Notes under the pieces: generated by a model
Told to the model about the DNA's origin: nothing
Databases searched by the model: none
The model's input: the letters and a program-made list of their open reading frames with translations, nothing else
Shown: in pieces, positions 3,050 through 63,253 of the stretch
Layout of the letters: each line of letters starts with the position of its first letter
Numbering within the stretch: position 1 is the stretch's first letter
Virus record (IMG/VR): IMGVR_UViG_2061766007_000921
Reading direction: 5' to 3' (one strand)
Source: an uncultured virus (IMG/VR IMGVR_UViG_2061766007_000921)
Lineage: Duplodnaviria; Heunggongvirae; Uroviricota; Caudoviricetes
Length of the DNA: 64,000 nt
Made by a program: the position numbers and the translations under genes

Positions 3050-4846
3050 TTATGCATTCAAATCAGGTGGTGGTGCTTGAGGAAGTTCTCCACCTACTTC
3101 TAATTCTCCACCTCCACCAAGGTCTCCTCCTGGTTCTCCTCCGCCAAGGTCTCCTCCACCTCCGAAGTCTCCACCTCCACTGAAGTCTCCACCTCCGCCA
3201 AGGTCAAATCCGCCTCCACCAAGGTCTCCTCCCATTCCACCTTGTTCTGCTTGTTCTGCTTGTGCTTCTTCAAGTTTCTTCTTATCTTCATCAAGAAGTT
3301 TCTTATTAAGTGTCCAATCATCATCAGTAAAGTTCAAATACTTCTGAAGTAAGAATCTCATACTAAATACTGGAGTTTGATCTTGATTTTGCAAACTTGC
3401 AAGTGTTTGAATAAGTTGAGTACCTTGTTCAAGAATAGCTTTTTCCTTTGCAAGTGCAAATACATTTTCTTCAGTATATGTTAATCCAAGAGCATTCTTA
3501 AGAACATTGTTTTCTGCATGTGCTTTGTTGTGAAGACAAAATTGTGTCCAAGTAGGTTTAATAAGAATCTCTTTAATAATATCTCTAATTCGTTGAATAA
3601 ACAAACTAAATTTATATTCTTCATGTGTCATTGTGCTGTTATCAGGAACAATTGATGATTCTTGTCCGTCAAACAACATATTAAATCTATCTTTAGGAAG
3701 TCTTGTTTCAATTAAAAATCTTTGCCAGAACCATTTAAGAGATTCTACAGAGTTCATATCATGACCTTCAACTCCTAATTCTGAAATTTCTGTCTGTGTA
3801 CCTTCTTTACTTGGGAATATAAAAGTTTTTGCAAATGAGAATTTTGGTTGTCCATTGACTGTAATTTCACCAGACATATTATCAATTACAATCTCTTCTT
3901 TATATCTGGCTTCAAGTTCACGAAGACGTGTTCTCATTTTTTGTTCTGACTGTGTACCTGCAGGAACAACAATTTTTACTCTCTTTTGTGCATTCTGTAA
4001 GTTCCAAATAATTCTTGAATTCTCAAGAGTACGAAGCATATTGAAAGTTCTAATAAGGTGTTCACAATATGACAAGTGTGAAATAAAATTGTTCTTTGCC
4101 CAAGAAATATAAATTACATTAGTGTCAAGAAGAACACGCTCATTTTGTGCATCTCCTTTGTTCTGAATCCATACTTTATATTCTCTTCCTTGCAAATCTT
4201 TTTTAATTGCAGGTTGCAATGTAATAGGGTCAAGTTCTTGGAATCCTACAATATCTTTTGCAATTGTATTATCTTGATTGCTATCATAAATTATTTCAAA
4301 TGCAAGAAATCCATCAATAAGAAACTTTTTAACATAATGCCAAGCATCATTAGATTCATTAAAATGGAACAAATGGTATATTCTTCTATATGCACTATTA
4401 ATTTCATCTACAATTTGTTTACCTGATTCTGCTTTAAGAATTGATTTTAATCGTTTAGTATTTGGATATGCAAAATAATGCATATCATCATTTACAATAG
4501 TTTCATCAGCAATAGTATCAAGAACATAATTAATCTCACCTTGTAAAGCAAACTTTCTTAAAAAGTCTCTTCTCATTTGATAAGATTGGTCGAAAAATGC
4601 TATATAGTCATTTTGTCCTGCAATATTAGAGTGCTTTCTGAACTCATAATCGTCATTTAAAGTAGTTCCATTAAATGCATCATTGAGAGCAGTCTCCTCT
4701 GCTCCAACACCTCTCATTTGTTTAATAAGAGAACTGTTCCATCTAACACCAAGTGCACTTAATGACAGCAAATTACTTTCTAATCTACGATTAGGTCTTG
4801 CTTCATTTGAACTTGTTAATGACTTGAGTATATATCTTTTAGGCAT
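3050..4846 (-). CDS. T4 gp20-like portal protein
   Basis: IADETIV, FLIDG, ELDP, N.LR.LE.S.II, P..EG..TEI..L motifs; Gly-rich acidic tail. Confidence 0.85.
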   Translation of the reverse strand: MPKRYILKSLTSSNEARPNRRLESNLLSLSALGVRWNSSLIKQMRGVGAEETALNDAFNGTTLNDDYEFRKHSNIAGQNDYIAFFDQSYQMRRDFLRKFALQGEINYVLDTIADETIVNDDMHYFAYPNTKRLKSILKAESGKQIVDEINSAYRRIYHLFHFNESNDAWHYVKKFLIDGFLAFEIIYDSNQDNTIAKDIVGFQELDPITLQPAIKKDLQGREYKVWIQNKGDAQNERVLLDTNVIYISWAKNNFISHLSYCEHLIRTFNMLRTLENSRIIWNLQNAQKRVKIVVPAGTQSEQKMRTRLRELEARYKEEIVIDNMSGEITVNGQPKFSFAKTFIFPSKEGTQTEISELGVEGHDMNSVESLKWFWQRFLIETRLPKDRFNMLFDGQESSIVPDNSTMTHEEYKFSLFIQRIRDIIKEILIKPTWTQFCLHNKAHAENNVLKNALGLTYTEENVFALAKEKAILEQGTQLIQTLASLQNQDQTPVFSMRFLLQKYLNFTDDDWTLNKKLLDEDKKKLEEAQAEQAEQGGMGGDLGGGGFDLGGGGDFSGGGDFGGGGDLGGGEPGGDLGGGGELEVGGELPQAPPPDLNA

Positions 4847-43920: not shown

Positions 43921-44370
43921 TTATTCTCGCACAATAAAATCTGCAGCCCAAGTTGCAATTGGTCCTAAAGTCTTATATCTGCATTTATAACCCATACCTT
44001 CTACTAATCCTTTAGCAGATTCAAATACCTCATTTGATTTAAATTTTCCAAGAGGGCTAACATCAATATCAATAAACTGAGGTTTTGGAAGACCTGCATC
44101 ACGCATTGTATTAGCAGTTTCAATACTCTTCCAAACTTCATTCATAAGTCTTACAGCACGTACTTTCTCTCTTTCAGTTTTTTCTCTCTGAAATATGATG
44201 TGACCACCCTTTCCAGGATTATAGAGAACTACTGCTGTTGCATATACTGTTCCTGTACGAAAGTTTTGACTATCAGTACCAACAAATATACTAACATCTG
44301 GATGTGAAGAAATATAGTTCTTCACATAATCAATTAATTCAATTTTTTCTCCTCTAGTAGTTCTAAACAT
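43921..44370 (-). CDS. RNase H-like YkuK/DUF458 family protein
   Basis: VGTDSQ, GKGG, RL..EV..S, IDIDV, AAD. Confidence 0.8.
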   Translation of the reverse strand: MFRTTRGEKIELIDYVKNYISSHPDVSIFVGTDSQNFRTGTVYATAVVLYNPGKGGHIIFQREKTEREKVRAVRLMNEVWKSIETANTMRDAGLPKPQFIDIDVSPLGKFKSNEVFESAKGLVEGMGYKCRYKTLGPIATWAADFIVRE

Positions 44371-45028: not shown

Positions 45029-46690
45029 TTAAATGACCACCTTGGTTATTTCATCTATGACAGATGAAGCATTGAACTCGTTTGCAGAAATAGTGTCATA
45101 CAAAGTAGGACCATATCCGAACATGTAGAATACCTTACCGTCATTCTTCAATGGAGTAGTTCCATAAGAAGCAAGGTCAATTCCGTATACGTAAGGGCTG
45201 CAAACATCGTGAACATAAGTCTTGTATGCAGAACTAGTCAAACGACCGTTTACCTCATTGTCAGAAATAAACACGATTCTGTCATACTTCTTCTTGTCAC
45301 GAGTGATCAAGTTGAATGCTGCTGCAGGGTTAGTTCCACCGAACTCATCAGTACCAATCTTGTCAGCAAGAGAGAACACGTTCTCATTCTTGTTGTAAGT
45401 AAAGTAAGATGCGCTAGTACCGAACTTTACAATATCTGCATTGCATGACTTTGCAATAGTTGCAGCAATCAAACCTGCCTTGTAAGAACACTGACGGTGA
45501 CGTGTCTCATACCAGCTTCTAGACTGCTTGTAGTCAGGACGAGTATTGTAGAATACACCAGATCCCATAGAACCTGAGCAGTCTACAATAATGCAAGTCT
45601 TGCCGGTAAAGATGCTTCCAAGGTTTGGAATAGACTTTGTGTAACCGTCAATAAGAGCCTGCATTACTGAATTTGCGTAATCCATATTAGAAAACTCATC
45701 CTTGATGACATCATGTGCAACATCAAAGTATACAGGAAGAATAAGAGCCTGACGGATCTTCTTCTCATCTGTAATAAGCTTGATCCACATATCAATGGTT
45801 TCCTTACGAGGATTCTGCATGATATTACGGATATTTCTCAATGCAGCAAGCATACCAAGACGTCCATCCTTAAGAAGAGACTCCCAGTTATCTGCCTTAG
45901 CCTCAGCAAGAACCTTTTCAGCTTCTGCCTTAGAAAGCTTACCAGCACGAACCGCCTTAGCAACCTCCTGGCCAGCTTCTGACTGTGCAGACTCCCAAGT
46001 ATCTGCAGTGATAGTGATACCCTTCATAAGAGCATCAAGAGTCTTCATCTTCTTACCGTCTACAGTAATCTCTGAAACAGAGAGAGCAGACTTAGGGTGA
46101 GCAAGATTTGCAATGTCAATGACACTCTTGCTGTACTTACCAATAAGATAAGTATCCATCTTCTCGATTGCAGATGCAAATCCCTTCTTCATTGCATTTG
46201 ACATAGGAGACTTAGTAAGAGTGCAATATGCATCCTTGATCTCAGTCATGTCATCTGGACGAAAAATACATCCACCTCTCTTCATCTTCTTGTCAAAAAG
46301 ACCATAGAATCTCTTTGCATAATCCTTACCTGCAATGAAAGGTGCTACAATAGCAGCTGCAAGATGGTTAATGGTACGCATACCCTCACCGATGCAACGA
46401 GACCATACAATAGCCTGACATACAAAATAAGGATCATCAACTGCGATCTTTTCAATAAGATCACGAAGATCTCTCATAGTTTCATTCTCAGAACGATAAA
46501 ACTGAGGCTCAATCTTTAAAGTGTTGAGCATAGAAACAAGACGAAGCTTATCATTGATAGAATAAGCCGCATGACCCTGACGGTTAACAGTATCTTCCTT
46601 AGGAATGGTGTTAACCTCAATTACTCGCTCCTTGGTTGCAAGGCCGCCGAGTGCGCTCTTAAGCTGAGCGTTTCTTTCCTTCATCTTCAT
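45029..46690 (-). CDS. rsr: TROVE-domain Ro60/Rsr RNA-binding protein
   Basis: VNRQGHAAY, GMRT, RPDD, TWE, ALRNIRN, vWA DCSGSM...GGT...ISDNE. Confidence 0.9.
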   Translation of the reverse strand: MKMKERNAQLKSALGGLATKERVIEVNTIPKEDTVNRQGHAAYSINDKLRLVSMLNTLKIEPQFYRSENETMRDLRDLIEKIAVDDPYFVCQAIVWSRCIGEGMRTINHLAAAIVAPFIAGKDYAKRFYGLFDKKMKRGGCIFRPDDMTEIKDAYCTLTKSPMSNAMKKGFASAIEKMDTYLIGKYSKSVIDIANLAHPKSALSVSEITVDGKKMKTLDALMKGITITADTWESAQSEAGQEVAKAVRAGKLSKAEAEKVLAEAKADNWESLLKDGRLGMLAALRNIRNIMQNPRKETIDMWIKLITDEKKIRQALILPVYFDVAHDVIKDEFSNMDYANSVMQALIDGYTKSIPNLGSIFTGKTCIIVDCSGSMGSGVFYNTRPDYKQSRSWYETRHRQCSYKAGLIAATIAKSCNADIVKFGTSASYFTYNKNENVFSLADKIGTDEFGGTNPAAAFNLITRDKKKYDRIVFISDNEVNGRLTSSAYKTYVHDVCSPYVYGIDLASYGTTPLKNDGKVFYMFGYGPTLYDTISANEFNASSVIDEITKVVI

Positions 46691-50254: not shown

Positions 50255-50400
50255 TGGCGGGTGAAGGACTCGAACCTCCAATCTTTTGTTCCAAATACAA
50301 ATGTGTTTACCGACGAAGTAACTCAATGATATGACTACCATATGATTACTCACAAGGAGAATGAAATCTTGAGTGTTTTCTAAAATTTCACTAACCCGCC
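50255..50400 (-). ncRNA. Y-RNA-like 3 (module inserted in the D loop of a Gln(TTG)-like tRNA)
   Basis: GGCGGGT/ACCCGCC acceptor; insert TTCTC...TAGTCA..GTTACTTCG. Confidence 0.7.
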
Positions 50401-52322: not shown

Positions 52323-52399
52323 TCGGGATGGAGGGATTTGAACCCCCGTGCAACCAGCTACCGTTTCAACAAGGTATAAGCTTGAGCGGATACATCCCG
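52323..52399 (-). ncRNA. Rearranged tRNA-like RNA, TAT anticodon loop
   Basis: Acceptor and T arm normal; D-loop-like AGCTGG lies 3' of the anticodon arm. Confidence 0.65.
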
Positions 52400-52837: not shown

Positions 52838-52913
52838 TACTGGGTACCGGATTCGAACCGGTGTCGACGGTGTGAAAGGCCGCCCGCCTCAACCACTAGC
52901 AGAATAACCCAGC
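52838..52913 (-). tRNA. tRNA-Glu(TTC)
   Basis: Cloverleaf. Confidence 0.82.
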
Positions 52914-56377: not shown

Positions 56378-56381
56378 ATTG

Positions 56382-56453
56382 TGCTCCATGCAGGAATCGA
56401 ACCCGCTTATATTCGTTTTAGGGACGAGCGACCAACCAATGGCCCAATGGAGC
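56382..56453 (-). tRNA. tRNA with CTA anticodon (amber suppressor candidate, C33)
   Basis: CTCGT-CCCTAAA-ACGAA anticodon arm; normal acceptor, D and T arms. Confidence 0.65.
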
Positions 56454-59768: not shown

Positions 59769-59920
59769 AACAAAAGAGAAATCAGCGAAATCTGTGTTTT
59801 CAGTTTACAAATTACAAGTTTGTTGCTTTACCACTAAGCTAATCGTTCAAAATTAATGGCGAACAATGATGGAGTCGAACCATCGAAATCGAAGTAAGAT
59901 TTTGCTTGGCTACTTTTGTT
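59769..59920 (-). ncRNA. Y-RNA-like 9 (module at the variable loop of a permuted Thr(TGT)-like tRNA)
   Basis: TAGCCAA..TTACTTCG, T arm, ATTGTTC-GCCA, linker, GAACGAT, D arm, anticodon arm, TTTCTC. Confidence 0.75.
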
Positions 59921-60789: not shown

Positions 60790-60881
60790 TGGGAGCGGAG
60801 GGATTCGAACCCACTTACTCATAAACCATTACGCCGATTTGTTACGAGGACGATTTTACGGACCGTTGGCGTTACACTCCC
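60790..60881 (-). ncRNA. Pseudoknotted Tyr(GTA)-like tRNA (D loop relocated)
   Basis: ACGCC, anticodon arm, CTCGTAA..GGCGT-AATGG..TTATGAG, T arm. Confidence 0.7.
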
Positions 60882-60906
60882 ATATTCATTATTTCAAAAA
60901 ACTCTG

Positions 60907-60979
60907 TGGCCCCGGTGGGACTCGAACCCACAATCTCCACGCTTAAAAGGCGGGAGCTTTACCATTCAGCTACAAGGCC
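60907..60979 (-). tRNA. tRNA-Lys(TTT)
   Basis: Cloverleaf. Confidence 0.88.
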
Positions 60980-60988
60980 TTTACCTTG

Positions 60989-61060
60989 TGCCCCCATCCG
61001 GAATCGAACCGGAACCCCGTGATTAAAAGTCACGTTGACTAACCATTATCCTATAAGGGC
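60989..61060 (-). tRNA. tRNA-Lys(TTT)
   Basis: Cloverleaf. Confidence 0.88.
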
Positions 61061-61103
61061 AAGTTATTTTATTGTCTATACCCATAATAGGATATAGAAC
61101 TTA

Positions 61104-61130
61104 TCAACGTTTCTGTTTAATCTTTTTCAT
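61104..61130 (-). CDS. Possible Lys-rich leader peptide MKKIKQKR
   Basis: Between a promoter and two tRNA-Lys genes; followed by a hairpin. Confidence 0.4.
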   Translation of the reverse strand: MKKIKQKR

Positions 61131-61152
61131 TTTTTTCTTTAGTTTAACATTA

Positions 61153-61183
61153 CAAATATACAAACTTTTTTGTAACCTGCAAA
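61153..61183 (-). promoter_or_regulatory. Bacteroidota-type promoter
   Basis: TTTG-N19-TATATTTG. Confidence 0.8.
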
Positions 61184-61207
61184 ATTTATTTTAAAATTTT
61201 TTATTTG

Positions 61208-61283
61208 TGGTCTCCCTGAGACTCGAACTCAGAAACCTTCGCCGTATCAGAGCGCTGCGCTAAACCAATTGCGCCAGGAGACC
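61208..61283 (-). tRNA. tRNA-Ile(GAT)
   Basis: Cloverleaf. Confidence 0.88.
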
Positions 61284-61291
61284 ATATTATT

Positions 61292-61540
61292 TTATCCAAT
61301 AAGCATCAAATCATCATTTTCTAATGCTCTTCTTATCCATCTCATAAGTATAATTGCTTTATCATAATGAGGCATAAATGATGCACTTTCTCCACAATCT
61401 ACTTTATTTGATAAATCAATTTCAACCATATACTTAACACCATTGCAAGAAGTAATAATATATTCTGCAACTCCTCCGCTTCTAATGCAATCAAGATTAG
61501 CAGTTCCTTTTACTATTTCTGTAAGTGTTTCAGTAATCAT
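61292..61540 (-). CDS. Hypothetical protein
   Basis: 82-aa ORF, DKAIILMRWIRRA. Confidence 0.65.
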   Translation of the reverse strand: MITETLTEIVKGTANLDCIRSGGVAEYIITSCNGVKYMVEIDLSNKVDCGESASFMPHYDKAIILMRWIRRALENDDLMLIG

Positions 61541-61560
61541 AATTATTAATTTTATATTTG

Positions 61561-61625
61561 TACCTCGAGCGGGATTCGAACCCGCAATACACAGATCTTA
61601 AGTCTGTTGCCGTTACCAGTTAGAC
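61561..61625 (-). tRNA. tRNA-Leu(TAA), 5' end in gap, short variable loop
   Basis: D, anticodon and T arms visible. Confidence 0.78.
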
Positions 61626-61856
61626 NNNNNNNNNNNNNNNNNNNNNNNNNNNNNNNNNNNNNNNNNNNNNNNNNNNNNNNNNNNNNNNNNNNNNNNNNNN
61701 NNNNNNNNNNNNNNNNNNNNNNNNNNNNNNNNNNNNNNNNNNNNNNNNNNNNNNNNNNNNNNNNNNNNNNNNNNNNNNNNNNNNNNNNNNNNNNNNNNNN
61801 NNNCTCAAGGTTTCTGGTTTGATAGTCTTAACTCTCCTAAACCTTTTTTGAGTTTG

Positions 61857-61931
61857 TACCCCACCCCGGACTCGAACCGGGAAAAATATGAGCCTTAGTC
61901 ATACGCGTATGCCAAATTCCGCCAGCGGGGC
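61857..61931 (-). tRNA. tRNA-Leu(AAG), short variable loop
   Basis: TATGA-CTAAGGC-TCATA. Confidence 0.8.
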
Positions 61932-61938
61932 ATAATTG

Positions 61939-62077
61939 TGGAGGGGATTGGACTCGGACCAATGCGCCGTGCTTTCATGGCAATTCGAAGTAACTTTCAT
62001 ATTGGCTATTGTCTAACAAAGAAAATATACAAAAGCATAATTTCTAATACGTGCTCTACCAACTGAGCTACCCCTCC
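61939..62077 (-). ncRNA. Y-RNA-like 10 (YrlA-type: module in the anticodon arm)
   Basis: GGAGGGG/CCCCTCC, canonical D arm, TTTTCT...TAGCCAA..GTTACTTCG, T arm. Confidence 0.75.
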
Positions 62078-62191
62078 ATATTTCTTATTTCAATGAACAA
62101 ATTAAAACCTGGTTTTACTAAGAGTGGTTGTTATTACTACCAGGAAACCTTCCTCTTAGTTTAAGCTAAAGAAATTCTTTAGTTTGAGTGG

Positions 62192-62283
62192 TGGGAAGAG
62201 AGGGACTCGAACCCCCTTACTGCAAGGCCAATACGACAATTTGTGTTCAGGTTTGATTTACAGTCAAGTGTCGTTATCTTCCC
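62192..62283 (-). ncRNA. Pseudoknotted Tyr(GTA)-like tRNA (D loop relocated)
   Basis: ACGAC, anticodon arm, CTG..GTCGT-ATTGG..CAG, T arm. Confidence 0.7.
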
Positions 62284-62291
62284 AAAAAATA

Positions 62292-62888
62292 TCAATTTTT
62301 TGTATGATAAAATTCTCTCCAATTACTAAATGTTTTATCAACTGCGAGTGTTTTCAAATATTCAATATCATATTTGTCTGTTGTGTGTATTACTCTGTGA
62401 CAATTTGGACAAACAATTATTAAATTGTCAGCATCATTAGTTCCTCCTTTACTTTTTGGAACAATATGATGAATGTCACAAGAACTTTCATTCCAACCAC
62501 AAATTGAGCAAGAACATTTTGCTCTATACAATATTTTTGATACTGTCCTTGATGACAAGTCTAACAAAGATTGTACCTCTTCTTTAACATGCACTCTTTG
62601 TAATTTACAATCATTACAATGAATGTGTCTTCCTTTCTTTATTTGGCTCTTTCTTACAAATTCTTTTCCACATTTTTCACAAGTATAATGATATTCTTGA
62701 TTTTCGTAATAAACTTTAATGCCATTACGTATTTTATCAAGCCGCTCCTGTGTCATTGGTCTAGAATTTGCACAGCTCAAAGAACAACAATGTTTGTATC
62801 TTCCAGCTTTCCAATCAGCATCTGAACATGTTACTTCATATTCTTTTCCACATCTTTTACAAATACATATATGTGTTTGCTTTTCCAT
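62292..62888 (-). CDS. HNH endonuclease
   Basis: CSICG, DIHHIVP..KGGTN...NL..VCPNCH. Confidence 0.85.
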   Translation of the reverse strand: MEKQTHICICKRCGKEYEVTCSDADWKAGRYKHCCSLSCANSRPMTQERLDKIRNGIKVYYENQEYHYTCEKCGKEFVRKSQIKKGRHIHCNDCKLQRVHVKEEVQSLLDLSSRTVSKILYRAKCSCSICGWNESSCDIHHIVPKSKGGTNDADNLIIVCPNCHRVIHTTDKYDIEYLKTLAVDKTFSNWREFYHTKN

Positions 62889-62979
62889 AAAAAAATATAA
62901 ATTTATTTTTATATTTATTCTCAAAGCCTTATAAAAAATTCACTTTTTCTACAGTCACTCGCGATTTCAAAGAACTTAG

Positions 62980-63065
62980 TGGGGGAGGAGGGATTCGAAC
63001 CCCCTGAGTTTCTGATGTGCTTGATCTACAGTCAAGTGCCCGACCACCATCCGAGCAGCTCCCCC
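62980..63065 (-). tRNA. tRNA-Tyr(GTA)
   Basis: Cloverleaf, long variable arm. Confidence 0.88.
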
Positions 63066-63173: not shown

Positions 63174-63253
63174 TGGTACATAGGTGGGACTCGAACCCAC
63201 GTGAGATGATCAAACTCGAACCTGACATAAGCGTGCACAAACTTCCTATGTAC
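63174..63253 (-). ncRNA. tRNA-like RNA with acceptor stem and two T loops, no anticodon arm
   Basis: GTACATAG/CTATGTAC-CA; GGTTCGAGT occurs twice. Confidence 0.6.

What the first reader, a model, noticed from the sequence alone, without database searches (positions are those of the whole stretch)
60790..62283. Pseudoknotted tRNA architecture with the D loop moved into the variable arm
Seen in 60790..60881 and 62192..62283: acceptor 5' strand, TA, one D-stem strand, then directly the GTA anticodon arm. The partner D strand and GG-containing D loop come afterwards, enclosed by a variable-arm helix, then a normal T arm. Pairings covary (ACGCC/GGCGT vs ACGAC/GTCGT; CTCGTAA/TTATGAG vs CTG/CAG). 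A canonical tRNA-Tyr is also present. Inference: an L-shaped tRNA with rewired connectivity that tRNA scanners would miss, either a nuclease-resistant decoder or a decoy.
Basis: seen in the sequence. Interest (0 to 1): 0.78.

Follow-up and report, generated by a model that had tools for sequence, protein, structure and literature searches.

The report
Rewired, pseudoknotted tyrosine tRNA in phages
This giant phage carries two genes for a tyrosine tRNA whose D-arm half has been moved into the long side arm, forming a knot-like fold that gene finders miss; the same design is conserved in many phages, including the cultured gut phage crAss001.

Summary
Window 60790-60881 (E1) and 62192-62283 (E2), minus strand, each encode a 92-nt RNA. 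It has a normal acceptor stem, GUA anticodon arm, T arm and A73, but no D hairpin. A 5-nt strand after U8-A9 pairs with a strand inside the loop of the variable-arm helix, giving an H-type pseudoknot. ARAGORN misses both.

They belong to a large family: 124 distinct members outside the window, from viral and metagenome contigs. The two crossing helices are 99.8% and 99.2% paired, with compensatory changes. A model built without the window scores E2 at 93 bits and E1 at 84 bits.

With the anticodon loop left free in the search, 103 of 103 members read GUA. All 68 viral loci lie in phage tRNA arrays, and 26 of 38 distinct arrays have no canonical tRNA-Tyr nearby. The same element sits unannotated in Bacteroides phage crAss001, which has no annotated tRNA-Tyr. 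Only 2 hits occur in 185,579 prokaryote genomes, both on array-bearing MAG contigs.

It is most likely a working tyrosine decoder. It may have been rebuilt to escape nucleases such as Septu/Retron-Eco7 PtuAB, which cut the tRNA-Tyr variable loop. Charging, fold and resistance are untested. My literature searches found no description of it.

The parts
62192..62283 (-). E2: whole 92-nt rewired tRNA-Tyr(GUA) gene, G1 at 62283 and A73 at 62192
   Evidence: Sequence. R2 model 93.0 bits. Rfam tRNA 31.6 bits with the D arm deleted.
62189..62191 (-). E2 genomically encoded CCA after A73
   Evidence: Sequence.
62277..62283 (-). E2 acceptor 5' strand GGGAAGA, pairing with 62193-62199
   Evidence: Acceptor helix covaries at 7 of 7 pairs in the family.
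62270..62274 (-). E2 D-like helix 5' strand ACGAC. It follows U8-A9 and runs straight into the anticodon stem, like canonical positions 22-25.
   Evidence: Pairs with 62233-62237. Helix is 99.8% paired in 124 relatives, with 3 of 5 pairs showing double changes.
62252..62268 (-). E2 anticodon arm CUUGA-CUGUAAA-UCAAA, with anticodon GUA at 62259-62261
   Evidence: 103 of 103 family members found with a free anticodon loop read GUA.
62248..62250 (-). E2 variable-arm helix 5' strand CUG
   Evidence: Pairs with 62220-62222. Family helix is 99.2% paired, with 2 of 4 pairs showing double changes.
62233..62237 (-). E2 D-like helix 3' strand GUCGU, inside the variable-arm loop (like canonical 10-13)
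62228..62232 (-). E2 A-U-U-G-G. A, U and GG were fixed by my search patterns. Proposed equivalents of A14 and G18-G19.
   Evidence: Sequence; alignments. The assignment is inferred.
62220..62222 (-). E2 variable-arm helix 3' strand CAG
62200..62216 (-). E2 T arm GGGGG-UUCGAGU-CCCUC
60790..60881 (-). E1: whole 92-nt rewired tRNA-Tyr(GUA) gene, G1 at 60881 and A73 at 60790. No CCA is encoded.
   Evidence: Sequence. R2 model 84.3 bits.
60868..60872 (-). E1 D-like helix 5' strand ACGCC
   Evidence: Pairs with 60831-60835.
60850..60866 (-). E1 anticodon arm ACGGU-CCGUAAA-AUCGU, with anticodon GUA at 60857-60859 and C instead of U at position 33
   Evidence: C33 recurs in 4 of 42 distinct sequences (window plus viral and MAG loci) and 8 of 103 metagenome distinct members.
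60842..60848 (-). E1 variable-arm helix 5' strand CUCGUAA
   Evidence: Pairs with 60818-60824. This helix is in the MFE fold.
60831..60835 (-). E1 D-like helix 3' strand GGCGU
60826..60830 (-). E1 A-A-U-G-G (proposed A14 / G18-G19 equivalents)
   Evidence: The assignment is inferred.
60818..60824 (-). E1 variable-arm helix 3' strand UUAUGAG
60798..60814 (-). E1 T arm GUGGG-UUCGAAU-CCCUC, with one U-U mismatch
62979..63065 (-). Canonical class II tRNA-Tyr(GUA) of the same array. Its T stem is identical to that of E2, and its anticodon stem differs by one base in the closing pair (G in place of A).
   Evidence: ARAGORN; sequence.

Best explanation
E1 and E2 are two diverged copies (73% identical) of a conserved phage gene for a tyrosine tRNA whose core is wired differently from every described tRNA.

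In canonical numbering, the 5' D-stem strand plus the first half of the D loop (about positions 10-21) has been taken out of its place between A9 and position 22. It now sits in the loop of the long variable arm.

The chain therefore runs as follows:
- acceptor strand, then U8-A9;
- a strand that behaves like 22-25, then a 26-like base;
- the anticodon arm;
- the variable-helix 5' strand and an A-rich linker (..AACAAAU..);
- a strand that behaves like 10-13;
- A (like A14), N, U, GG (like G18-G19) and a short linker;
- the variable-helix 3' strand and UAR;
- the T arm, the acceptor strand and A73.

The D helix still forms, but between two distant strands, so it crosses the variable helix as an H-type pseudoknot. 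All the parts that build the L shape are kept, and only the backbone path changes: U8, the A14-like A, GG, a T loop matching the canonical consensus, and a D helix stacked on the anticodon stem.

I infer that the RNA is cut out of the array transcript, given CCA where needed, charged by the host tyrosyl-tRNA synthetase and used to read UAU/UAC. The expected synthetase identity elements are present: GUA anticodon, A73 and a long variable arm.

The most likely reason for the rebuild is escape from host defence nucleases that recognise and cut the variable loop of normal tRNA-Tyr. Septu and Retron-Eco7 PtuAB do this in E. coli.

Shown: the gene family, both helices, its restriction to Tyr, and its place in phage arrays.
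Inferred: the 3D fold, charging, decoding and nuclease escape.

My odds: real conserved structured RNA gene 0.97; charged decoder about 0.6; nuclease escape as the selective reason about 0.35.
For: (1) Family and structure. Patterns taken from E1/E2 found 68 loci in IMG/VR.
- On 124 distinct members outside the window, the D-like helix is 99.8% paired. Pair types are GC 101/AU 15/CG 8, six types at the next pair, and CG 99/AU 14/UA 5/GC 4/UG 1.
- The variable helix is 99.2% paired (GC 111/CG 11/AU 1; CG 111/GC 5/UG 1).
- The whole structure is 97.8% paired against 71.1% in shuffles (0 of 500 reach it) and 32-55% when slid.
- The smaller set A1 gives the same picture.
- An unguided MI/APC scan ranks exactly these pairs at the top.

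(2) Independent scoring. Model R2, built without window sequences, gives 93.0 and 84.3 bits.

(3) Decoder-like features.
- With the anticodon loop unconstrained, 103 of 103 distinct metagenome members have GUA. The loop is CUGUAAA in 91.
- A73 is present in 102 of 103, and G1-C72 in 71 of 103.
- The acceptor and T stems covary while keeping the 7/5 geometry.

(4) Context.
- All 68 viral loci lie in arrays of 5-44 ARAGORN tRNAs.
- After dereplication to 38 distinct elements, 26 have no canonical tRNA-Tyr(GUA) within 10 kb. Tyr is the least often found amino acid among all 38 and in arrays of 10 or 15 tRNAs and more; in those of 20 or more it ties with Ser at 9 of 19.
- In crAss001 the element (100% identical over 104 nt to the viral-contig copy L075) fills an unannotated gap between tRNA-Lys and tRNA-Phe. 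The RefSeq record has 25 tRNA features and none for Tyr.
- The crAss001 paper reports 25 tRNAs for 17 amino acids, found with ARAGORN (PMC6235969, passages read).

(5) Phage restriction. The same pattern hits only 2 contigs in 185,579 species genomes. Both carry many tRNA matches, with the listed ones dense over about 24-35 kb, like phage arrays.

(6) Known arms race on this very part of tRNA-Tyr.
- Septu and Retron-Eco7 PtuAB cut the variable loop at U47/C48.
- T5/SP15 phage tRNA-Tyr resists through its distinctive variable loop.
- Sources: PMC13096335 and PMC12673091, passages read.

(7) A second rewired tRNA family, Ile(UAU), is present in this window and widely in viral contigs, which argues that the design works.
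Against: - No read-level RNA data. RNA-library contigs from two studies span the crAss001 element, but contigs cannot show mature ends, strand or CCA, and they may derive from DNA.
- Charging, EF-Tu or ribosome use and the 3D fold are untested, and no RNA 3D tool was available.
- 12 of 38 distinct arrays, and this window, also keep a canonical tRNA-Tyr, often right next to the element. The element is therefore not simply a replacement, and that fits a decoy as well.
- After dereplication the Tyr deficit in large arrays is modest: Tyr 9/19, Ser 9/19, Cys 10/19.
- E1 has C33 instead of the near-universal U33, a U-U mismatch in the T stem, and a 7-bp variable helix that leaves only 6-nt linkers. 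It may work less well.
- Several invariant positions were fixed by my search patterns, so their conservation is partly by ascertainment: UAAC, CU, AAAU, GUA.UGG and AGU.
- Whether the hosts (Bacteroides/Prevotella-type) carry a nuclease directed at tRNA-Tyr was not established.
Confidence: 0.55

Rival explanations
1. Decoy or sponge. The RNA keeps the surfaces that a tRNA-Tyr-directed host nuclease (or another tRNA-Tyr binder) recognises, but it is not cut or not used in translation. It titrates the enzyme and so protects host and canonical phage tRNA-Tyr.
For: It coexists with a canonical tRNA-Tyr in this window and in 12 of 38 distinct arrays, often adjacent. This window keeps two diverged copies. 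Over-expressed tRNA-Tyr is reported to neutralise PtuAB toxicity and weaken Septu (PMC12673091 and PMC13096335, passages).
Against: 26 of 38 distinct arrays, and crAss001, have no other tRNA-Tyr. A pure decoy would not explain why Tyr is the slot left empty. The family strictly keeps a full 7-nt anticodon loop with GUA and A37-A38, A73, and the 7/5 acceptor/T geometry. A translating tRNA needs these features; a variable-loop decoy need not.
Confidence: 0.2
2. Decoder with altered reading. The loosened or rebuilt core changes how the tRNA bends on the ribosome. The precedent is D-arm mutations such as the Hirsh suppressor (recalled, not from a call). A GUA tRNA could then also read UAA/UAG or otherwise recode.
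For: The window's phage carries a CUA suppressor tRNA. It is related to Lak phages, which are reported to recode a stop codon (recalled). Core rewiring is the kind of change that could alter decoding.
Against: Table-11 frames in the window are long and open. crAss001 is annotated with the standard code, to my recollection. No sequence feature points to stop reading. I did not analyse stop-codon usage.
Confidence: 0.05
3. A tRNA-shaped RNA with a role outside translation. It could be a partner of the phage Ro60/TROVE-like protein encoded beside the array (as bacterial Y RNAs carry tRNA-like modules), a primer, or a regulator.
For: A 553-aa ORF with a TROVE domain lies at 45032-46690, at the edge of the array. 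Bacterial Y RNAs are reported to mimic tRNAs (PMC4201824, abstract seen in the listing).
Against: The element has no extra Ro-binding stem and ends like a tRNA (A73, sometimes CCA). The Rfam gathering search found no Y RNA-like family. No product in the crAss001 feature tables I saw is named Ro or TROVE, yet the phage has the element. The anticodon is always GUA.
Confidence: 0.07
4. Decaying tRNA-Tyr pseudogenes or chance similarity.
For: tRNA finders reject them. E1 has C33 and a T-stem mismatch.
Against: There are 124 distinct relatives with 97.8% pairing and compensatory changes in all five helices. E1 and E2 are only 73% identical yet both keep every helix.
Confidence: 0.01

Closest known systems
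Canonical bacterial-type class II tRNA-Tyr(GUA), such as the one at window 62979-63065
   Same: GUA anticodon in a 7-nt loop, A73, mostly G1-C72, 7-bp acceptor stem, 5-bp T stem with a T loop matching the canonical consensus, and a helical long variable arm. E2 has the same T stem as the window's canonical copy, and its anticodon stem differs by one base.
   Different: There is no D hairpin. The D helix forms between a strand right after A9 and a strand inside the variable-arm loop, which makes a pseudoknot. The GG segment follows the distal strand.
T5/SP15 phage tRNA-Tyr that resists Retron-Eco7/Septu PtuAB (PMC11555353, PMC12673091, PMC13096335; passages read)
   Same: A phage-encoded tRNA-Tyr whose altered variable arm is the feature that matters in a host-phage conflict. 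It sits in a phage tRNA region next to homing endonuclease genes. An HNH ORF lies directly upstream of E2.
   Different: Those tRNAs are described as cloverleaf tRNAs with a longer variable loop. Here the backbone topology itself is changed. No link to PtuAB was tested here.
D-armless mitochondrial tRNAs, such as mt-tRNA-Ser(AGY) and nematode tRNA-Ser (review PMC7609411, passages read)
   Same: No D hairpin between the acceptor and anticodon stems.
   Different: Mitochondrial forms are described as losing the D domain and becoming flexible. Here a 5-bp D-like helix, a GG segment and a canonical-looking T loop are all kept, so a rigid canonical-like core is expected. The element is found in phages of bacteria, not organelles.
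Pseudoknotted tRNA-like structures of plant RNA viruses, such as the TYMV TLS (recalled, not from a call)
   Same: A viral RNA that reaches a tRNA shape by way of a pseudoknot.
   Different: There the pseudoknot builds the acceptor stem at the 3' end of a genomic RNA. Here it lies in the D/variable core of a free-standing gene within a tRNA array.
Permuted and split tRNA genes (Cyanidioschyzon, Nanoarchaeum; recalled) and allo-tRNAs with 8/4 or 9/3 stems (PMC5389517, abstract seen in the listing)
   Same: Natural departures from the standard tRNA gene layout, found by genome or metagenome mining.
   Different: Permuted and split genes are processed into a normal cloverleaf. Here both ends are normal and an internal segment is transposed, which no single circular permutation can undo. 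Allo-tRNAs change stem lengths, not connectivity.
Rewired tRNA-Ile(UAU)-like family in phages (this window 52323-52399; earlier scan note e1-6065237)
   Same: U8-A9, then a short strand, then directly the anticodon arm. The partner strand comes after the anticodon arm and is followed by UA..UGG. ARAGORN misses it as well.
   Different: It has a class I body with no variable helix, so the long-range helix (3 bp) is nested rather than pseudoknotted. I found no co-occurrence with the Tyr element in 68 viral loci.

Membership tests
tRNA (canonical cloverleaf, Rfam RF00005) | 7-bp acceptor stem with a discriminator base | tested here: met
   E1 and E2 pair at 7 of 7 positions and have A73. The helix covaries at 7 of 7 pairs.
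tRNA (canonical cloverleaf, Rfam RF00005) | 5-bp anticodon stem and 7-nt loop with U33 and a purine at 37 | tested here: met
   E2 has CUGUAAA. E1 has CCGUAAA with C33, a variant seen in 8 of 103 metagenome members.
tRNA (canonical cloverleaf, Rfam RF00005) | T arm with a GUUCRANYC-type loop | tested here: met
tRNA (canonical cloverleaf, Rfam RF00005) | D hairpin between positions 9 and 26 | tested here: not met
   Only 5 nt plus 1 nt lie between A9 and the anticodon stem. Rfam aligns E2 with the D arm deleted.
tRNA (canonical cloverleaf, Rfam RF00005) | Score at or above the Rfam gathering threshold (29 bits) | tested here: inconclusive
   E2 scores 31.6 bits, but only in the sensitive search and not in the standard one. 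E1 has no tRNA match; its best is tmRNA at 17.5 bits, below threshold.
tRNA (canonical cloverleaf, Rfam RF00005) | Mature CCA-ended, aminoacylated RNA used in translation | not testable with these tools
   Only RNA-library contigs were available.
Bacterial-type class II tRNA-Tyr | GUA anticodon | tested here: met
   E1 and E2. 103 of 103 family members found with a free anticodon loop.
Bacterial-type class II tRNA-Tyr | A73 discriminator and G1-C72. These identity elements are recalled from the literature; the review PMC9976931 was seen only in a search listing. | tested here: met
   E1 and E2 have A73 and G1-C72. In the family, A73 is present in 102 of 103 and G1-C72 in 71 of 103.
Bacterial-type class II tRNA-Tyr | Long variable arm with a helix | tested here: met
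   The variable helix is 99.2% paired with compensatory changes. Its loop is occupied by the D-like strand.
Bacterial-type class II tRNA-Tyr | Charged by TyrRS | not testable with these tools
   No assay was possible.
D-armless mitochondrial-type tRNA | Loss of the D domain and of the D-loop/T-loop contact elements | tested here: not met
   A 5-bp D-like helix is kept. UGG was fixed by the search patterns, and the T loop is only partly pattern-fixed.
Permuted or split tRNA gene | The pieces can be re-ordered by circularisation or trans-joining into a normal cloverleaf | tested here: not met
   Both acceptor strands are already at the two ends, and only an internal segment is displaced. No circular permutation restores the normal order. 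This follows by reasoning from the sequence.

The most novel reading that the evidence does not exclude
Phages have evolved a class of topologically rewired but fully working tRNAs. The segment carrying the 5' D strand and the GG half-loop is transposed to the 3' side of the anticodon arm. In class II tRNA-Tyr it lies inside the variable arm and makes a pseudoknotted core. In tRNA-Ile(UAU) it is nested. These tRNAs would be charged and would decode normally, yet be invisible or uncuttable to host immune nucleases that read the canonical D/variable surface of tRNA-Tyr (Septu/PtuAB-like). That would make this the first natural elongator tRNA with a pseudoknotted core, present in the cultured model phage crAss001.
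Probability: 0.35. Interest if true: 0.9.

Novelty: new variant of a known kind. Interest (0 to 1): 0.8.

Why it matters
- It would show that the tRNA L-shape can be built with a different backbone path. [quoted passage not shown]
- It adds a missing tRNA-Tyr gene to crAss001 and its relatives, and to many uncultured phage genomes where standard finders report none. That changes estimates of phage tRNA complements.
- It gives a concrete, testable candidate for structural escape from tRNA-Tyr-cutting defence systems.
- It offers a natural scaffold for orthogonal tRNA engineering.
- crAss001 grows in culture, so charging, structure and defence tests are directly feasible.

Tried and rejected
- No whole genome is held for this window, so other copies in the same genome could not be sought.
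- blastn of E2 against 50,697 phage records gave no match.
- Covariance model R1 found only ordinary tRNAs (27-28 bits) in Lak-A2, Lak-B1 and Lak-C1. The published Lak phages, which share weak DNA similarity with the window, seem to lack the element.
- RNA evidence: RNA-library contigs of runs X1-X3 (one study) and X5 (a second study) cover the crAss001 stretch 3600-4800 including the element, with no differences. Contigs show no ends, strand or CCA, and DNA carry-over cannot be excluded. I do not count this as proof of expression.
- Processing into a normal cloverleaf (intron, permuted gene) was considered and rejected, because no single excision or circular permutation restores the normal order.
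- Co-occurrence of the Tyr element with the Ile(UAU)-type element: 0 of 68 viral loci with a strict pattern.
- The bacterial Schlafen paper (PMC13056530) did not bear on tRNA-Tyr.
- A search for Septu in Bacteroides hosts gave nothing usable.
- Earlier-findings look-ups by sequence and by place returned nothing.
- The loose pattern returned mostly random hits without a T loop. These were set aside by requiring a GUUCRA T loop and at least 6 of 7 acceptor pairs.
- Ten literature searches were run; seven bore on novelty and found no description of this architecture. Subscription-only papers are not in the library.
Full report
**What the window is.** The 64-kb window is AT-rich (26-41% GC), and nearly all long ORFs are on the minus strand. 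It encodes a T4-like portal protein, anaerobic ribonucleotide reductase, a RecA-like ATPase and a 3919-aa protein. It shares weak DNA similarity with Prevotella Lak megaphages. No whole genome is held for it. From 44.6 to 63.7 kb it carries a minus-strand array of 41 ARAGORN tRNAs covering all 20 amino acids, plus a CUA suppressor. The finding's two elements lie inside this array.

**The observation.** Read on the minus strand, E1 (60881 to 60790) and E2 (62283 to 62192) are each 92 nt and have the same layout:
- a 7-bp acceptor stem;
- U8-A9;
- a 5-nt strand (ACGCC in E1, ACGAC in E2);
- one base, then a 5-bp stem with a 7-nt loop holding GUA (CCGUAAA, CUGUAAA);
- a 35-nt region;
- a normal T arm;
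- A73.

There is no D hairpin. Inside the 35-nt region sits the exact complement of the 5-nt strand (GGCGU, GUCGU). It is flanked by the two strands of another helix, CUCGUAA/UUAUGAG in E1 and CUG/CAG (plus two A-U pairs across a bulge) in E2. Because one strand of the first helix lies inside the loop of the second, the two helices cross and form an H-type pseudoknot. The anticodon arm sits in the first loop.

Single-sequence folding cannot show both helices at once. It finds the variable helix in E1 and the D-like helix in E2.

ARAGORN calls neither element. Rfam at its gathering threshold lists neither. The sensitive Rfam search matches E2 to tRNA at 31.6 bits with the D arm deleted, and does not match E1 to tRNA. 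A canonical tRNA-Tyr lies at 62979-63065.

**A large family.**
- Patterns derived from E1/E2 found relatives in IMG/VR. A 22-base pattern that left the D-like strands free except for two fixed letters each found 68 loci.
- The same 22-base pattern found only 2 contigs among 185,579 prokaryote species genomes. Both are MAG contigs with many tRNA matches, the listed ones dense over about 24-35 kb, which looks like mis-binned phage.
- In the curated phage collection the element is present in 31 records: crAss001, PhiCrAssBcn1-25, cr112_1, Kehishuvirus 'tikkala' and bajarodcaudo virus 1. No feature is annotated under the match in any of them.
- Lak-A2, Lak-B1 and Lak-C1 lack it.

**Test of the structure.**
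- On 33 distinct sequences (alignment A1), the D-like helix is 100% paired, with double changes in 3 of 5 pairs. The variable helix is 98.4% paired, with double changes in 2 of 4 pairs.
- I then aligned all 124 distinct members outside the window (alignment A2). Four of them have fewer than 6 acceptor pairs and were kept. Copies cut by contig ends were dropped by the extraction script.
- On A2 the whole pseudoknotted structure is 97.8% paired. Column shuffles give 71.1% (0 of 500 reach the observed value), and slid controls give 32-55%.
- The D-like helix is 99.8% paired. Pair 12-51 is GC 101, AU 15, CG 8. Pair 13-50 has six pair types. Pair 14-49 is CG 99, AU 14, UA 5, GC 4, UG 1.
- The variable helix is 99.2% paired. 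Pair 36-66 is GC 111, CG 11, AU 1. Pair 37-65 is CG 111, GC 5, UG 1.
- The two outer pairs of each of these helices never vary, but my patterns fixed them, so they say nothing either way.
- A mutual-information scan that knew nothing of my structure ranks the acceptor, anticodon, T, D-like and variable pairs at the top. It adds a weaker 15-33 pair (A-C 55, A-U 38, G-U 24, U-A 3), which looks like the 26-44 pair of normal tRNAs.
- A covariance model built from A2, with no window sequence in it, scores E2 at 93.0 bits and E1 at 84.3 bits. The next best hit in the window is 33.4 bits.
- E1 and E2 are only 73% identical. Each is closer to copies in other contigs (80% and 89%), so they are two old lineages kept in one phage.

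**How the wiring maps onto a normal tRNA (inference from the sequence).** The strand after A9 runs straight, through one base, into the anticodon stem, exactly as positions 22-25 and 26 do in a normal tRNA. Its partner runs away from the anticodon stem and is followed by A, N, U, G, G. This is the pattern of 10-13, A14, R15, Y16/17 and G18-G19. The simplest description is that segment 10-21 has been cut out from between 9 and 22 and pasted into the variable-arm loop.

In the known tRNA fold (recalled), U8 and A9 lie beside A14/A21 and the 12-23 pair. A direct 9-to-22 link is therefore plausible, and 11-nt and 6-11-nt linkers tie the transposed segment to the variable helix. All pieces of the core are kept: U8, the A14-like A, GG and the T loop. 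That is why I expect an L shape. This was not modelled.

**What it does.**

Arguments for a working tyrosine decoder:
- With the anticodon loop free, 103 of 103 distinct metagenome members read GUA. Of these, 91 have CUGUAAA, 102 have A73 and 71 have G1-C72.
- The 7/5 acceptor/T geometry is kept by covariation.
- All 68 viral loci lie in arrays of 5-44 tRNAs, and ARAGORN never calls the element. One neighbouring tRNA-His merely overlapped my padded interval.
- Without dereplication, in arrays of 20 or more tRNAs canonical Tyr is the rarest amino acid: 10 of 38, against 26-37 of 38 for the others apart from Cys at 15.
- After dereplication to 38 distinct elements, 26 have no canonical tRNA-Tyr within 10 kb. 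Tyr remains the least often found overall, though in the largest arrays the gap is small: Tyr 9/19, Ser 9/19, Cys 10/19.
- In crAss001 the element fills a 170-nt unannotated gap between tRNA-Lys and tRNA-Phe. The whole RefSeq record has 25 tRNA features, none for Tyr. Its authors found 25 tRNAs for 17 amino acids with ARAGORN (PMC6235969, passages).

Arguments against, or for a decoy:
- This window and 12 of 38 distinct arrays also keep a canonical tRNA-Tyr, often adjacent.
- E1 has C33 and a T-stem mismatch. C33 does recur, in 4 of 42 and 8 of 103 distinct members.

Why the tRNA would be rebuilt. Published work shows that Septu and Retron-Eco7 PtuAB stop phages by cutting tRNA-Tyr in its variable loop (U47/C48). 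It also shows that T5-like phage tRNA-Tyr escapes through a distinctive variable loop (PMC13096335, PMC12673091 and PMC11555353, passages read). A tRNA-Tyr whose variable loop is locked into a pseudoknot with the D strand is a plausible, more radical answer to the same pressure. Nothing here tests that. I could not establish that the relevant hosts carry such nucleases.

**RNA evidence.** RNA-library contigs from two studies cover the crAss001 element without differences. Contigs cannot show ends or CCA and may stem from DNA, so expression remains unproven.

**A second rewired tRNA.** Model R1 also picked out 52323-52399 (34.6 bits). This is a 77-nt gene with the following parts:
- a normal acceptor stem and T arm;
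- anticodon loop CUUAUAC (UAU, Ile);
- no D hairpin;
- a CCG/CGG helix that encloses the anticodon arm and is followed by UA..UGG.

Of the 92 distinct sequences, including the window's, 59 fit a strict layout. In those, the 3-bp helix pairs in 59 of 59, with five strand combinations. It is the same idea, with the distal strand plus GG placed after the anticodon arm, but without a variable helix and so without a pseudoknot. I found no co-occurrence of the two types in 68 viral loci.

**Novelty.** Ten full-text searches were run; the seven that bore on novelty found no description of this architecture. I also read passages of a review of non-canonical tRNAs (PMC7609411), which does not mention phages or pseudoknots. 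One paper's abstract states that all known bacterial tRNAs are canonical (PMC11551756, listing). Subscription journals are not covered. I class the element as a new variant of a known kind: a tRNA with a new core topology.

Noticed in passing
window 52323-52399 (-): A 77-nt tRNA-Ile(UAU)-like gene without a D hairpin. A CCG/CGG helix encloses the anticodon arm and is followed by UA..UGG. ARAGORN misses it.
   Followed up: partly
window 61939-62077 (-): tRNA gene with an insertion of about 78 nt in the anticodon region (Rfam tRNA 41.1 bits, full length). It is probably an intron-bearing tRNA. ARAGORN does not call it.
   Followed up: no
window 45032-46690 (-): 553-aa ORF with a TROVE (Ro60-like) domain at the edge of the tRNA array. 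An RNaseH-like ORF lies at 43924-44370. This may be a phage RNA quality-control module.
   Followed up: no
window 62295-62924 (-): HNH endonuclease ORF wedged between the canonical tRNA-Tyr and E2. Homing endonucleases next to tRNA-Tyr are reported to amplify that region in T6 (PMC13096335).
   Followed up: no
window 56381-56453 (-): tRNA with a CUA anticodon (ARAGORN calls it 'Pyl'), that is, an amber suppressor. It hints at stop-codon recoding, as reported for Lak-type phages (recalled).
   Followed up: no
window 63176-63252, 50255-50315, 52838-52913, 59786-59848 (-): Further tRNA-like stretches in gaps of the array. They get weak model or Rfam scores and ARAGORN does not call them. Some may be other non-canonical or decayed tRNAs.
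   Followed up: no
window 61626-61803: A run of N (masked stretch) that cuts a tRNA gene at 61569-61625.
   Followed up: no
L496 44979-45069 (crAss001 record 101478-101568): RefSeq annotates a 91-nt 'tRNA-OTHER' pseudogene with a 4-letter anticodon call (taat). It may be another non-standard tRNA in crAss001.
   Followed up: no
L200, L229, L245 and other viral loci: Where a canonical tRNA-Tyr is present, it often lies immediately next to the rewired one, and in L245 on both sides. This suggests origin by tandem duplication.
   Followed up: partly
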